NCBI GenBank assembly: GCA_009914755.4
Contig: CP086569.2
Location: forward strand, 29,152,001-29,216,000
Length of the DNA stretch: 64,000 nucleotides
Direction: 5' to 3'
Source of the DNA: the human T2T-CHM13v2.0 reference genome, Homo sapiens
A program made the translations under genes and the position numbers. Shown one piece after another: positions 45,946 to 49,524 of the stretch; within the stretch, counting starts at the first letter, position 1; each line of letters begins with the position of its first letter. Under the pieces are notes generated by a model. The model had not been told where the DNA came from and did no database searches. It saw only the letters and a program-made list of their open reading frames with translations.

Positions 45946-47764
45946 TTGTTTCCATTCTCTTCGATTCCATTTCTTATATTCCATGCCATTCGATTCCATT
46001 CTATTGGATTGCATTACATTCGTGTTCATTCCATTCCAGACCATTCCATTTAACTCCATTCCTTTCGAGCCCTTTCAATTTGAGTCCATTCCTTTCCAGT
46101 CCATTTCACTCCAGTCCATTACTATCCATTCCATACCATTCCATCCCATTGCATTCCATTCCATTCCATTGCATTGCATTCCATTCCATTCCATTCCATT
46201 GCACTGCACTCCATTCCATTACATTCTATTCTATTTGAGTCGATTTTATTGCATTAGATTCTATTCCATTGGATTACTTTCCATTCGATTACATTCCATT
46301 CATGTACATTCCATTCCAGTGAATTACAATCGAGTTCATTACATTACATTCCAGTATATTCCATTGTGTTCGATCCCATTCCTTTCAATTCCATTTCATT
46401 CGACTCCATTATATTCGATTCCATTCCACTCGAATCCATTCCATTAGAGGACATTCCATTCCAATGCATTCCATTCCATTCCAAAGCATTCCATTGCATT
46501 CGATTCCATTCCATTTGATGCCATTCCATGACATTCCATTCCATTCGAGTCCATTCCGTTCCAATTCATTCCATTCCGTTTCATGAAATTCGAGTCCTTT
46601 CCATTCCATTTCATTCCAATCCCATCCAATCCAATCTACTCCATTCAATTCCTTTCCATTCCATTTGATTATATTCCATTGATTTGATTCCATTCAGTTT
46701 GATTCCATTCCGTGAAATTTCGTTCCATTCTATTCCATTGCATTACTTTCCATTCAATTCCATTCCATTTCATTTCAGTCCATTCGCTTCCTTTCCTTTC
46801 GATTCAATTCTATTTTATTCCACTCCATTCTATGCGATTTCATTCCAATCGATTCAATTCCATTCGATGACATTCCTTTCGTTTCCATTCCCTTCGAGTC
46901 CATTCAATTTGAGCATTCGTGTCCATTCTATTCGAGTCCATTCCATTACCGTCTATTCTATTCCCTTCCATTCCTGTTGATTCAATTTCATTCCCTTCCA
47001 TTCGATTCCTTTCCATTCGATTCCATTCCTTTCCATTCCATTCCATTCGTTCCCATTCCATGTGATTTCATTCCATTCCAGTCCATTATATTCGAGTCCA
47101 CTCCACTCCATTCTATTACATTCAATTCCTTTTGAGTCCGTTCCATAACACTCCATTCATTTCGATTCCTTTTCTTGCCAGTTTTCTTCCATTTTATTCC
47201 ATTCCGTTCGATTCCATTCCACTCGATTGCATTCCATTCGAATCCTTTCTATTCCATTCCATTTCATTCGATTTGATTCCATTCTGTTCTATTCCATTCA
47301 ATTCTTTTTCATTCCATTCGAATCCTTTCTATTGCAGTCCATTCCATTCGATTCCATTCCAACCCCTTCGATTCCATTCCATTACAGTCCATTCCAATAG
47401 ATTCCATTCCTTTCCCTTTCATTCTAATCCATTCCATTTGTGTCAATTCCTTTCCAATCCATTCGACTGGATTTGATTCTCTTTCATTCTATTTGATTGC
47501 ATGGCATTCCATTCCGTTTGATTCCAGACCATTCAAGAAAGTTCCATTCCAGTCCATTGCTTTCGAGTCCATTCCATTCTACTCTAGTCTATTCCATTCC
47601 ATTCCTTTCCATTCCATTCCATACTATTCCATTCCATTCCTTTGCATTCCGTTTCCAATCTATTCGAGTCCATTGCATTCCAGTCCAATCCATTCGATTA
47701 TATTCCTTTTAATTCCCTGCTAGTCGATTGCATTGCATACTAGACCATTCCAAAGGAGTCCATA
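45946..47764. repeat. DYZ1/HSat3 terminal HOR unit U14. Truncated ~1.9 kb into the unit and noticeably more diverged, with several pentamer-multiple deletions.
   Basis: Marker at 45946. It ends at 'ccaaaggagtccat', which in U13 lies 1918 bp into the unit (44301-44320) but here only 1818 bp in, so ~100 bp of deletions (e.g. 47221-47260, 47400-47480). Confidence 0.7.
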
Positions 47765-47780
47765 TGATATATTATTTAAA
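47750..47780. other. DYZ1 (HSat3) -> DYZ2 (HSat1B) array junction
   Basis: Sequence switches abruptly from '...ctagaccattccaaaggagtccat' to 'atgatatattatttaaagtatgtaataaaattatatata...'. Composition changes from CCATT-periodic to >85% A+T. Confidence 0.85.
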
Positions 47781-49524
47781 GTATGTAATAAAATTATATA
47801 TAACATAATATATGGTTATATGTATTGTATTATATATTTACGTATAATACTATACAGTTATATATAATTTTAAATACTTATATATAATAAAATATAAAAC
47901 ATATATAATATATATCATAAAATATATATTGTATACCATATATATTATGTATCATATATTGTATGTTATATAACATATATTGTATATCATATATCATATA
48001 TTACAAGGTATATATAACACATTCCACATATTGTATATTATAAGGAATTTATAATATATGACATACGTTTTATTACATATAATAAATTCTACGTTATATG
48101 TAACATAGAATATATTCTATGTAACATGTGTATCCTATATCAAATATGTAATATATAACATATATTATTTATAATTAATAACATAGACATATAATATATA
48201 TATAATACATGTATTATACATACAAAGTATTATATATAATATATAATACATATCATATATATGTCATAAAATATAATATATATTATATGTCATATATTAT
48301 ATATACAGTTATATATTATTATATGTTTTTTTATATTATATATAACCAGATATAATATATATTAACTATAGTGAATGTTATATATAACGTAGATATAATA
48401 TATATAATGTATATTATATACTTAATACGTACATTAACCATATAATATATTTGGTATATGATATATAATATATATTATATATGTCATAAAATATAATTAT
48501 TATATGTCATAGTGTATAAATATAATAGTTATACATTACCAGTTATTATAATACATATAATATATATAATATAAATGCAGGATGTAAAACAGTATTATAT
48601 ATATATGTTACATATATTATATATATGATTCTATATATTATTATATACATAATGTATAGATATAATTGTGGGGGCCCTATTTCCCATCTCATAACTTGTT
48701 TTAAGAAGCGCAGCATAATAACGTGTGGGCTTGGGATTCAGTTCTTGAAACAAAACTCTGAGCCTTCAATGACCTTTCGGTCTATGTAAAAGCACTCCTG
48801 TCTTCTTGGCAGCAGTTGGACCTCACAATGTGGATTGTGCCCTCACCCAGCAATGTTTATGCCCTATCGCCATGGTGACGGAACTAGGGGTCTCCTGCTC
48901 TTCGTCCTAAGGACCACTGTCTGTGCTGTGTCTTTCAAAGGTCAGAAGAGATTGAACCTTTGTGGTTTTATTTTCCCTGAGTTTGCTTTTTCTCATGGGG
49001 AACCTGTGTTGCTGCTTTGAAGGTATATTCATACTGGCCTTTCAAATGCCAACTCTTCAAATTACTAGTTAAGTCTTTCAAAATATGTTATTTAAAAAAT
49101 TATCCTCTGTATTTTCCATATGCAGTTATAAGTATGTTTCATGGTTATGTTTTATTCTTCAGTTTATACATTTGATTATTGTATCAAGCAGAGTACTTTT
49201 GAAATTTTTTTTCATTTAAAAAATGTGGATCTTGGCTCAGGCCTGTAATCACAGCAAATTTGGAGGCCAAGACAAGGGGATCACAAGGTGAAGAGATCAA
49301 GACCATCCTGGCCAATACAGTGAAACGCTGTCACTACTAAAAATCCAAAAAATTAGCTAGGCATGGTGGCAGCTGCTGTAGTCCCAGTGTGGTGTAGTCC
49401 CAGCTACCTGGGAGGCTGAGGGAGGACAATCGCTTGGACCTGTGAGGCAGATGTTGCAGTGGGCAAAGATGGCGCCATTGTACTCCACCCTCTGCAACAG
49501 GACAAGACTCTGTCTAAAAAAAAA
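47765..49524 (+). repeat. DYZ2 unit 1 (edge copy). AT-rich module 5'-truncated (~900 of ~1560 bp) and clearly more diverged than interior copies.
   Basis: AT-rich 47765-48666, unique module 48667-49233, Alu 49234-49524. The AT-rich part aligns to the distal half of later AT modules (e.g. 50171-51084) with many substitutions and indels. The unique module differs at several sites ('gggggccctatttccc' vs 'gggtgccctttttccc', 'gcagcataataacg' vs 'gcagcctaataacg'). Confidence 0.7.
49234..49524 (+). mobile_element. Alu (SINE) fragment embedded in the DYZ2 unit. 5'-truncated by ~10 bp, strongly CpG-decayed, with poly(A) tail.
   Basis: 'ggctcaggcctgtaatcacagcaaatttggaggccaag...gaccatcctggccaatacagtgaaac...actaaaaatccaaaaaattagctaggcatggtggc...gtagtcccagctacctgggaggctgaggg...ttgcagtgggcaaagatggcgccattgtactccaccc...gacaagactctgtctaaaaaaaaa' matches the Alu consensus left and right monomers. 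Sub-family was not resolvable by eye. Confidence 0.85.

What the first reader, a model, noticed from the sequence alone, without database searches (positions are those of the whole stretch)
45946..49524. Edge copies on both sides of the junction are markedly more diverged than interior copies
The terminal DYZ1 unit (45946-47764) has lost ~100 bp through several pentamer-multiple deletions (e.g. around 47221-47260 and 47400-47480) and carries many private substitutions. Interior units differ by ~1-2%.

The first DYZ2 unit's AT-rich module (47765-48666) differs from interior copies by roughly 10-15% with indels, whereas interior units are >98% identical. This is the expected signature of unequal-crossover and gene-conversion homogenisation that does not reach array edges. 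It means the junction is old relative to the last homogenisation sweep.
Basis: seen in the sequence. Interest (0 to 1): 0.5.

Follow-up and report, generated by a model that had tools for sequence, protein, structure and literature searches.

The report
Old relic copies at satellite junction
At the point where two human Y-chromosome satellite arrays (DYZ1 and DYZ2) meet, the truncated repeat copies on each side really are more diverged than the interior copies, but this is a published edge effect of tandem-array homogenisation, and most of the "divergence" is an older repeat variant inherited with the junction.

Summary
The window holds 13 full DYZ1-like units of 3.5 kb plus a terminal partial unit. 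A DYZ2-like array of 2.42-kb units follows, starting inside its AT-rich module. The breakpoint is at 47763/47764.

- **DYZ1 edge:** the terminal unit differs from interior units by 2.2-2.9% substitutions and 91-130 gap bp. Interior pairs differ by 0.36-2.09% and 0-55 bp.
- **DYZ2 edge:** the AT-rich fragment (47764-48666) differs from interior copies by 12.7-14.0%, with about 40 bp of indels. Interior pairs differ by 0.9-3.6%.
- **No gradient:** divergence does not rise with distance beyond these truncated copies. The first full DYZ2 unit is only mildly elevated.

Refinement: an independent metagenome contig (L012) has the identical breakpoint and the same four large DYZ1 deletions. It shares 107 of the 123 AT-module differences. 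A non-junction DYZ2 unit (L009) shares 97. Only about 1.6-1.8% of the edge sequence is private to this copy. Branch lengths show the interior lineage changed as much as the edge lineage.

So the edges are relics of an older variant that spread with the junction, while the interiors were overwritten by unequal exchange and gene conversion. Hallast et al. 2023 already reported this pattern for Yq12. It is already known and of low interest.

The parts
1..47763 (.). DYZ1-like (HSat3A6) array. It is a 3.5-kb higher-order repeat built from TTCCA pentamers, with 13 full units and partial units at both ends.
   Evidence: The k-mer spacing is 3504-3549 bp. TRF finds 15- and 20-bp pentamer-derived periods across 6-47699. 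Unit starts come from the anchor BLAST. Full-length interior divergence is 0.3-1.7%.
45946..47763 (.). Terminal, truncated DYZ1 unit (1818 bp, roughly the first half of a unit in this phase).
   Evidence: It has 40 substitutions against the consensus (2.2%) and 106 bp deleted. Pairwise, it differs from interior units by 2.2-2.9% and 91-130 gap bp, against 0.36-2.09% and 0-55 bp among interior units.
47242..47545 (.). Most diverged patch of the terminal DYZ1 unit. It holds deletions of 25, 15, 35 and 15 bp and a cluster of substitutions.
   Evidence: Deletions lie after 47242, 47412, 47460 and 47490. The bin 47346-47545 has 13 substitutions and 65 gap bp. All four deletions are shared with contig L012, which aligns without gaps to 47081-47763.
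47763..47764 (.). DYZ1/DYZ2 breakpoint, GGAGTCCAT|ATGATAT, with 1 bp (T) of microhomology.
   Evidence: Comparison with the DYZ1 and DYZ2 interior consensus sequences on each side. The breakpoint is identical in L012.
47764..48666 (.). Truncated 3' part (903 bp) of a DYZ2 AT-rich module of an older "junction-type" variant.
   Evidence: It differs from interior copies by 12.7-14.0%. Of 123 differences from the interior consensus, 107 are shared with L012, 97 also with L009, and 16 are private. It clusters with L012 and L009, apart from 23 interior-type copies.
48667..49524 (.). GC-richer module (48667 to about 49221) and 5'-truncated Alu fragment with its poly-A (about 49222-49524) of the first full DYZ2 unit. 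Mildly more diverged than interior equivalents.
   Evidence: It has 17 substitutions per 900 columns, against 3-11 for units V2-V6. Its 555-bp GC-richer module is 1.8% from the consensus, against 0.2-1.3%. Two derived sites (48679, 48715) are shared with L012. No Rfam family reaches the gathering score. The Alu identity rests on reading the sequence and on the published unit description.
49525..51086 (.). AT-rich module of the first full DYZ2 unit, already at the interior level of divergence.
   Evidence: It has 0-3 substitutions per 100 columns, like V2-V6. Its 3' part is 1.8% from the consensus.
47764..64000 (.). DYZ2-like (HSat1B) array. It has one truncated AT-rich fragment, six full units of 2418-2431 bp, and a partial unit at the right end.
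   Evidence: Periods are 2416-2431 bp. The window consensus is within 0.4-0.5% of collapsed DYZ2 contigs from unrelated samples.
24712..38852 (.). Recent two-unit (7.05-kb) duplication inside the DYZ1 array: units U8-U9 and U10-U11.
   Evidence: U8 and U10 differ by 0.5% and U9 and U11 by 0.3%, against about 1.3% for adjacent units. The k-mer spacing has a peak at 7053 bp. This shows ongoing unequal exchange in the interior.

Best explanation
The window spans one boundary between a DYZ1 (HSat3A6) block and a DYZ2 (HSat1B) block of the human Yq12 heterochromatin.

**Proposed history**
1. A non-homologous join (1 bp of microhomology) once fused a DYZ1 unit, cut roughly in its middle, to a DYZ2 unit cut inside its AT-rich module. 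That DYZ2 unit belonged to an older variant.
2. The junction was later copied along with whole blocks.
3. Array interiors kept being overwritten by unequal sister-chromatid exchange and gene conversion. Today's interior units are therefore a young, near-uniform variant.
4. The truncated copies next to the heterologous boundary have homology on one side only. Once they are more than 10% diverged they are poor recombination partners. They stay outside the exchange and keep the old variant, plus about 1.6-1.8% of changes private to each copy.

**Shown here**
- The edge copies are more diverged than interior copies.
- Another sampled junction copy shares the breakpoint, the deletions and most of the edge variants.
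- The edge and interior lineages have about equal branch lengths.
- There are recent multi-unit duplications in the interior.

**Inferred**
- The single origin of the junction.
- The recombinational insulation of the edge.
- The time scale. With the published Yq12 rate of 3.86e-7 per bp per generation, the private changes correspond to roughly 4-5 x 10^4 generations, and the split between variants to roughly 1.7 x 10^5 generations. This is very rough.
For: - **Edge excess:**
- **Breakpoint:**
- **L012 as a second junction copy:** it has the identical breakpoint and aligns without gaps over 683 bp of the terminal DYZ1 unit, so it shares the deletions of 25, 15, 35 and 15 bp. It shares 10 of 23 DYZ1 substitutions, and two further sites are changed in both copies but to different bases. 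It also shares 107 of 123 AT-module differences.
- **L009:** it carries the same AT-module variant in a non-junction context.
- **Clustering of 35 AT modules:** 23 are interior type (1.6% within the group), 3 are junction type (4.2% within), and the groups are 13.3% apart. Other variants lie about 10-11% from both. This gives near-equal branches.
- **Interior exchange:** U8/U10 differ by 0.5% and U9/U11 by 0.3%. V4/V6 differ by 0.9%. There are k-mer peaks at 7053 and 4836 bp.
- **Literature:**
  - Hallast et al. 2023 report that mid-array units are more alike than distal ones in Yq12.
  - Rhie et al. 2023 report multi-block tandem duplications up to 5 Mb and evolution by unequal exchange.
  - Porubsky et al. 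2025 observed de novo gains or losses of 1-2 whole DYZ2 units about once per transmission, and 29% of Yq12 de novo SNVs that look like conversion.
  - The general edge effect is described by Garrido-Ramos 2017 and Khost et al. 2017.
Against: - There is only one junction in the window and only one other junction copy (L012). L012 is a short metagenome contig of unknown donor. It could be a collapsed consensus of several junction copies.
- No gradient is seen across the 13 DYZ1 and 6 DYZ2 full units. The window therefore shows a step at the truncated copies, not the progressive peripheral divergence described over whole arrays.
- The step at 48666/48667 coincides with a module boundary. It is partly explained by the AT-rich module evolving about 3 times faster.
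- The human Yq12 origin is inferred from published descriptions and contaminant contigs. The tools hold no human reference, so it could not be checked by alignment.
Confidence: 0.8

Rival explanations
1. Decay in place. The edge copies started as ordinary interior-type units. They mutated faster, or for longer, at this particular junction, for example through error-prone repair at the breakpoint. On this view the differences are truly private.
For: Within the window, 35 of 40 DYZ1 substitutions and nearly all AT-module differences are seen in no other unit. About 1.6-1.8% of sites on each side really are private to this copy.
Against: L012 shares 107 of the 123 AT-module differences and all four large DYZ1 deletions. 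L009, a non-junction unit, shares 97 of the AT-module differences. The edge lineage is no longer than the interior lineage (about 6-6.7% versus 6.6-7.3%). The last 218 bp before the breakpoint are not the most diverged part.
Confidence: 0.08
2. Rate heterogeneity only. The AT-rich module is intrinsically hypermutable through slippage in low-complexity DNA. Its 13% divergence would then say nothing about its position in the array.
For: In other DYZ2 variants the AT module is 10-11% from the consensus while the adjacent GC-richer module is only 2.5-4.5%. Among interior units the AT module also varies more (0.9-3.6%) than the GC-richer module (0.2-1.3%).
Against: Six interior AT modules in the same window differ by only 0.9-3.6%, against 13% for the edge copy. 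Position or lineage, not composition, therefore sets the edge copy apart. The DYZ1 side shows an edge excess too.
Confidence: 0.05
3. Artefact. The apparent divergence comes from misalignment of low-complexity sequence, or from an assembly error at a hard-to-assemble boundary.
For: Pentamer satellite and AT-rich sequence are easy to misalign. MAFFT placed one 22-column gap that BLAST did not need.
Against: A 391-bp ungapped BLAST alignment already gives 84-86% identity, and the next-best register gives only 68%. MAFFT and an independent global aligner agree. An independent contig from another data set reproduces the breakpoint and the variants.
Confidence: 0.03

Closest known systems
Peripheral divergence of DYZ1 and DYZ2 repeat units within Yq12 arrays (Hallast et al. 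2023, bioRxiv 10.1101/2022.12.01.518658; published in Nature 2023)
   Same: It concerns the same satellites and the same observation: units in the middle of an array are more alike than units at its distal ends. It gives the same explanation: expansion and contraction in the middle homogenise the units, and divergent units are left at the periphery.
   Different: That work scored whole units against a consensus across whole arrays. Here a single junction is resolved base by base. The excess is a step at the truncated copies rather than a gradient over the 13 and 6 units visible. The edge sequence is shown to be a variant shared with another junction copy.
Block structure and multi-block tandem duplication of Yq12 (Rhie et al. 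2023, bioRxiv 10.1101/2022.12.01.518724; published in Nature 2023)
   Same: It describes alternating DYZ1 (about 3.6 kb, pentamer-derived) and DYZ2 (about 2.5 kb: Alu fragment, >85% AT part, GC-richer part) blocks. Most units are >98% identical. Iterative duplications span several blocks. This explains why a junction can exist in several diverged copies.
   Different: The passages of the paper read here do not describe the junction sequence or the edge copies.
General edge effect of concerted evolution in tandem arrays (Smith 1976 unequal crossover model; McAllister and Werren 1999 accretion model; Drosophila Rsp, Khost et al. 2017; alpha-satellite cores versus diverged flanks)
   Same: The centre is homogenised, variant or low-copy repeats lie at the array ends, and the proposed mechanism is unequal exchange plus conversion.
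   Different: Those cases usually show many diverged units or monomeric layers. Here the clearly diverged zone is only about 1.5-2.3 kb. The boundary is with another satellite, not with unique DNA.

Membership tests
DYZ1 / HSat3A6 (human Yq12) | Tandem unit of about 3.5-3.6 kb | tested here: met
   Unit lengths are 3504-3549 bp. The published size is about 3.5-3.6 kb.
DYZ1 / HSat3A6 (human Yq12) | Unit built from diverged CATTC/TTCCA pentamers | tested here: met
   TRF finds a 15-bp consensus CCATTCCATTCCATT over 6-47699. Indels are multiples of 5 bp.
DYZ1 / HSat3A6 (human Yq12) | Sequence match to a reference human DYZ1 unit | not testable with these tools
   No human reference is available. 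The only outside match is the 683-bp DYZ1 part of contig L012, at 96.3% identity.
DYZ2 / HSat1B (human Yq12) | Tandem unit of about 2.4-2.5 kb | tested here: met
   Units are 2418-2431 bp.
DYZ2 / HSat1B (human Yq12) | Three-part unit: extremely AT-rich part, 5'-truncated Alu, GC-richer part | tested here: met
   GC content falls to 0.13-0.16 in the AT-rich kilobases and is about 0.38-0.40 in the others. An Alu-like sequence with poly-A is read at about 49222-49524. Rfam gives no hit at the gathering score, which is expected for a truncated Alu about 20% diverged.
DYZ2 / HSat1B (human Yq12) | Near-identity to DYZ2 copies from independent human-derived samples | tested here: met
   Collapsed contigs in metagenomes and in contaminated bacterial assemblies are 0.4-0.5% from the window's DYZ2 consensus. 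Their human origin is inferred.
Edge effect of concerted evolution in a tandem array | Edge copies more diverged than interior copies | tested here: met
   DYZ1: 2.2-2.9% and 91-130 gap bp at the edge, against 0.36-2.09% and 0-55 bp in the interior. DYZ2 AT module: 12.7-14.0% against 0.9-3.6%.
Edge effect of concerted evolution in a tandem array | Divergence falls off progressively with distance from the edge | tested here: not met
   The 13 full DYZ1 units show no trend. On the DYZ2 side only the first 0.9 kb of the first full unit is mildly elevated. The window covers only 47 kb and 16 kb of arrays that may be much longer, so a longer-range gradient cannot be excluded.
Edge effect of concerted evolution in a tandem array | Signs of recent unequal exchange in the interior | tested here: met
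   There is a two-unit duplication U8-U9 / U10-U11 (0.3-0.5%) and V4/V6 differ by 0.9%. The k-mer spacing has peaks at 7053 and 4836 bp.
Edge effect of concerted evolution in a tandem array | Edge variants older than the coalescence of the interior units | tested here: met
   The edge variants are shared with a second junction copy that is about 4% diverged from this one. Interior units differ by 1-3%.
Edge effect of concerted evolution in a tandem array | Exchange or conversion events observed to spare edge copies | not testable with these tools
   This needs pedigree or population assemblies. Published de novo events show exchange and conversion in Yq12 but are not broken down by position in the array.

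The most novel reading that the evidence does not exclude
All DYZ1-to-DYZ2 boundaries of this polarity in Yq12 may descend from one ancestral non-homologous fusion inside a now rare DYZ2 variant. The roughly 1.5-kb junction relics (about 47242-48716) would then form a family of a few dozen paralogues that evolve without homogenisation. They could serve as a clock and a phylogenetic marker, to order and date the block duplications that built the human Yq12 and to compare that history between haplogroups.
Probability: 0.4. Interest if true: 0.35.

Novelty: already known. Interest (0 to 1): 0.15.

Why it matters
The finding is a clean, base-level example of a textbook process, concerted evolution that stops short of array edges. 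The region, human Yq12, has only been assembled since 2023, and the pattern there has already been reported.

The practical value is small. Junction relics are the only parts of these megabase arrays that are locally distinctive. They could therefore serve as anchors for read mapping, assembly validation and reconstruction of block-duplication history.

The finding does not open a new question.

Tried and rejected
- **Exact junction 24-mer scan.** A metagenome scan with AAGGAGTCCATATGATATATTATT found nothing. This was later explained: L012 differs in the last two bases.
- **Shorter junction 22-mer.** A scan of viral contigs found nothing.
- **Rfam scan of 45000-52000.** It gave no hits, so the Alu fragment could not be confirmed that way.
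- **MAFFT --addfragments placement of the edge fragment.** It introduced a doubtful 22-column gap near the breakpoint. I re-did the comparison with a global pairwise aligner and got the same divergence.
- **Step at 48666/48667 as an old exchange endpoint.** I considered reading the sharp drop in divergence as proof of such an endpoint. I dropped it as a firm claim because other DYZ2 variants show a roughly 3:1 AT-to-GC-module divergence ratio, which explains much of the step.
- **CpG decay in the terminal DYZ1 unit.** I looked for it and found 0 of 40 substitutions were CpG transitions, with a transition-to-transversion ratio of 16:24. This was not informative.
- **L010.** It looked like a second kind of junction but is a chimera of DYZ2 with GC-rich, bacterial-looking sequence.
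- **L002, L004, L007, L021.** These come from two 54-kb contigs and carry many indels. They were too noisy to use as evidence of a gradient.
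Full report
**What the window is**

Positions 1-47763 are a pentamer-derived (TTCCA) satellite. Its higher-order unit is 3504-3549 bp long. Positions 47764-64000 are a composite repeat of 2418-2431 bp. Each unit has a GC-richer part, a 5'-truncated Alu with poly-A, and a very AT-rich part. This matches the published descriptions of DYZ1 (HSat3A6) and DYZ2 (HSat1B), the alternating blocks of human Yq12. The window's DYZ2 consensus is within 0.4-0.5% of collapsed DYZ2 contigs found as human contamination in unrelated metagenomes and bacterial assemblies. 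No human reference was available, so the assignment rests on these descriptions and matches.

**Checking the observation: DYZ1 side**

I cut the left array into 13 full units plus the terminal partial unit (45946-47763) and aligned them with MAFFT.

| Measure (columns covered by the terminal unit) | Terminal unit | Interior units |
|---|---|---|
| Substitutions vs 13-unit consensus | 40 (2.2%) | 7-21 |
| Private within the window | 35 | 1-17 |
| Deleted bp | 106 | 0-35 |

The deletions are 1, 15, 25, 15, 35 and 15 bp, after 45973, 46505, 47242, 47412, 47460 and 47490. An independent global aligner agrees. Terminal versus interior gives 2.2-2.9% substitutions, 91-130 gap bp and 7-9 gap events. 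Interior versus interior gives 0.36-2.09% (median 1.43%), 0-55 bp and at most 4 events.

The excess is concentrated in a patch at about 47242-47545. The bin 47346-47545 alone has 13 substitutions and 65 gap bp. The last 218 bp before the junction have 5 substitutions and no gaps. Across the 13 full units there is no trend with distance from the junction. Mean divergence to the other units is 1.1-1.4% for every unit, including the penultimate one.

**Checking the observation: DYZ2 side**

The array starts inside the AT-rich module. The 903-bp fragment 47764-48666 corresponds to the last ~911 bp of an interior AT module. It differs from the six interior copies by 12.7-14.0% substitutions and 38-42 gap bp in 8-9 events. 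Interior copies differ from each other by 0.9-3.6% with 0-2 events. The alignment is secure. A 391-bp ungapped BLAST match already gives 84-86% identity, and the next-best register scores 68%.

Divergence then drops abruptly at 48666/48667. The first full unit has 17 substitutions in its first 900 columns (GC-richer part plus Alu), against 3-11 for the other units. Its own AT module is at the interior level.

**The breakpoint**

DYZ1 homology ends at T47763, and DYZ2 homology begins at T47763/A47764. The junction reads GGAGTCCAT|ATGATAT, with 1 bp of microhomology. This points to a non-homologous join.

**Evidence from outside the window**

I scanned public contigs with a 26-mer that is conserved in all AT-module copies. 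The scan returned 22 metagenome loci and 5 contigs filed in bacterial genome assemblies. Two of them are decisive.

- **L012** (PKQM01000722.1, 1841 bp) is another copy of the same junction.
  - It has the identical breakpoint.
  - It aligns without gaps to 47081-47763 with 25 mismatches in 683 bp. It therefore carries the same deletions of 25, 15, 35 and 15 bp.
  - Its AT module is 96% identical to the window's edge fragment but only 85.5% identical to an interior copy.
- **L009** (ODWZ01000008.1) has the same AT-module variant at 94% identity. Upstream of the breakpoint-equivalent position it continues as ordinary DYZ2 AT-rich sequence (11.7% from the interior consensus). It is therefore a non-junction unit of the same variant.

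Site by site, the edge fragment differs from the interior consensus at 123 sites. L012 shares 107 of them, 97 are also in L009, and only 16 (1.8%) are private to the window. In the last 683 bp of DYZ1 the window differs from the consensus at 23 sites. Ten are shared with L012, two more are hit in both copies, and 11 (1.6%) are private. L012 has 12 private changes of its own. Interior units have 1-9 differences.

**What this means**

Most of the edge "divergence" did not accumulate at this junction. It belongs to an older junction-type sequence that existed before the junction was copied.

Clustering 35 AT modules gives three kinds of group:

| Group | Copies | Divergence within group |
|---|---|---|
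| Interior type | 23 | 1.6% |
| Junction type (window edge, L012, L009) | 3 | 4.2% |
| Several other variants | 9 | about 10-11% from both groups above |

The interior and junction types are 13.3% apart. The three-lineage branch lengths are about 6-6.7% for the junction type and 6.6-7.3% for the interior type. The edge lineage has therefore not evolved faster. It has simply not taken part in the interior's concerted changes. This is what the standard model predicts.

Interiors do show recent unequal exchange. Units U8/U10 differ by 0.5% and U9/U11 by 0.3%, which indicates a 7.05-kb two-unit duplication. V4/V6 differ by 0.9%. Published pedigree data show such events directly. About one gain or loss of 1-2 whole DYZ2 units occurs per Y transmission, and 29% of Yq12 de novo SNVs look like conversion. 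The rate is 3.86e-7 per bp per generation. At that rate the private 1.6-1.8% corresponds to very roughly 4-5 x 10^4 generations, and the 6-7% branches to about 1.7 x 10^5 generations. This is inference only, because the rate includes conversions.

**The step and the asymmetry**

The 13% versus 2.5% contrast between the two sides, and the sharp drop at 48666/48667, are partly a module effect. In other DYZ2 variants, an AT module 10-11% from the consensus is followed by a GC-richer module only 2.5-4.5% away. That is a ratio of about 3:1. For the junction type the figures are 12.4-13.2% and 1.8-2.8%.

The GC-richer module next to the edge fragment is therefore somewhat closer to the interior type than expected. 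It may have been partly converted. It shares only two derived sites (48679, 48715) with L012. With two copies this cannot be settled.

**Rival explanations**

- Decay in place, or mutagenesis linked to the breakpoint, is largely excluded by the sharing with L012 and L009 and by the equal branch lengths.
- Pure AT-rich hypermutability is excluded because interior AT modules are 0.9-3.6% apart.
- Misalignment or misassembly is excluded by ungapped matches, by two aligners agreeing, and by an independent contig reproducing the junction.

**Comparison with what is known**

Hallast et al. [quoted passage not shown] They attribute this to expansion and contraction in the middle, with divergent units left at the periphery. 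Rhie et al. 2023 describe tandem duplications spanning several blocks. The same edge effect is standard for other satellites.

The finding is real and correctly interpreted, but already known. The one addition here is that the edge copies are a shared relic variant that spread with the junction, rather than private decay. This is a modest refinement and rests on a single extra junction copy.

**Limits**

- There is one junction in the window and only one outside junction copy.
- L012 may be a collapsed consensus of several junctions.
- The arrays extend beyond the window, so longer-range gradients were not tested.

Noticed in passing
L023-L027 (LZSC01000004.1 Mycobacterium sp. 1100029.7; JAHWGP010000115.1 Streptomyces sp. 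DH5; CALPCJ010000037.1 Senimuribacter sp. DSM 106208; BMRF01000089.1 Actinomadura cremea JCM 3308; WYCU01000038.1 Azonexaceae bacterium s22): Five contigs filed in bacterial species-representative genome assemblies are DYZ2-like satellite units. Those measured are 0.4-0.5% from the window's consensus. They are almost certainly human (male) DNA contamination in those assemblies.
   Followed up: partly
L010:1-2231 (OGYC01015076.1): The contig begins with about 610 bp of DYZ2 AT-rich module and then switches abruptly to GC-rich, bacterial-looking sequence. It is probably a metagenome assembly chimera, not a biological junction.
   Followed up: partly
L009 (ODWZ01000008.1), end of the reverse-complemented contig: The contig ends in Illumina adapter sequence (AGATCGGAAGAGCGGTTCAGCAGGAATGCCGAGACCG) directly after the AT module. 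The GC-richer module that would follow this junction-type unit is therefore missing.
   Followed up: no
L011:376-3701, L013:866-4178, L014:712-4025: In L011 and L013 an interior-type DYZ2 unit (0.4% from consensus) sits next to a unit whose AT module is about 11% diverged and belongs to a third variant. In L014 two units of different non-interior variants are adjacent. The third variants are neither interior type nor junction type. These may be other array edges or transitions between variants within arrays.
   Followed up: partly
L002:1-13601 and L021 (both BNJT01002008.1, 54 kb): Successive DYZ2-like units range from about 1% to 8-14% substitutions from the consensus and carry many indels. 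This is either a strongly diverged HSat1B array (peripheral or non-Y) or a noisy long-read assembly. The two could not be told apart.
   Followed up: no
window 24712-38852: The DYZ1 interior has sub-structure. U8/U10 (0.5%) and U9/U11 (0.3%) form a two-unit 7.05-kb duplication. U1-U4 form a tight cluster (0.5-1.0%). U5, U6 and U13 each carry 19-20 private substitutions.
   Followed up: yes
window 53507-55937 (unit V3), alignment columns ~1100-1300: This DYZ2 unit is 2431 bp rather than 2418-2420 bp, because of about 23 bp of extra sequence in the 5' part of its AT module. V1 and V2 also form a local pair (1.8-1.9% apart) distinct from V3-V6.
   Followed up: no
window 45946-47763: The 40 substitutions of the terminal DYZ1 unit have a low transition-to-transversion ratio (16:24). 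None is a CpG-to-TpG or CpG-to-CpA change, although DYZ1 is relatively CpG-rich.
   Followed up: partly
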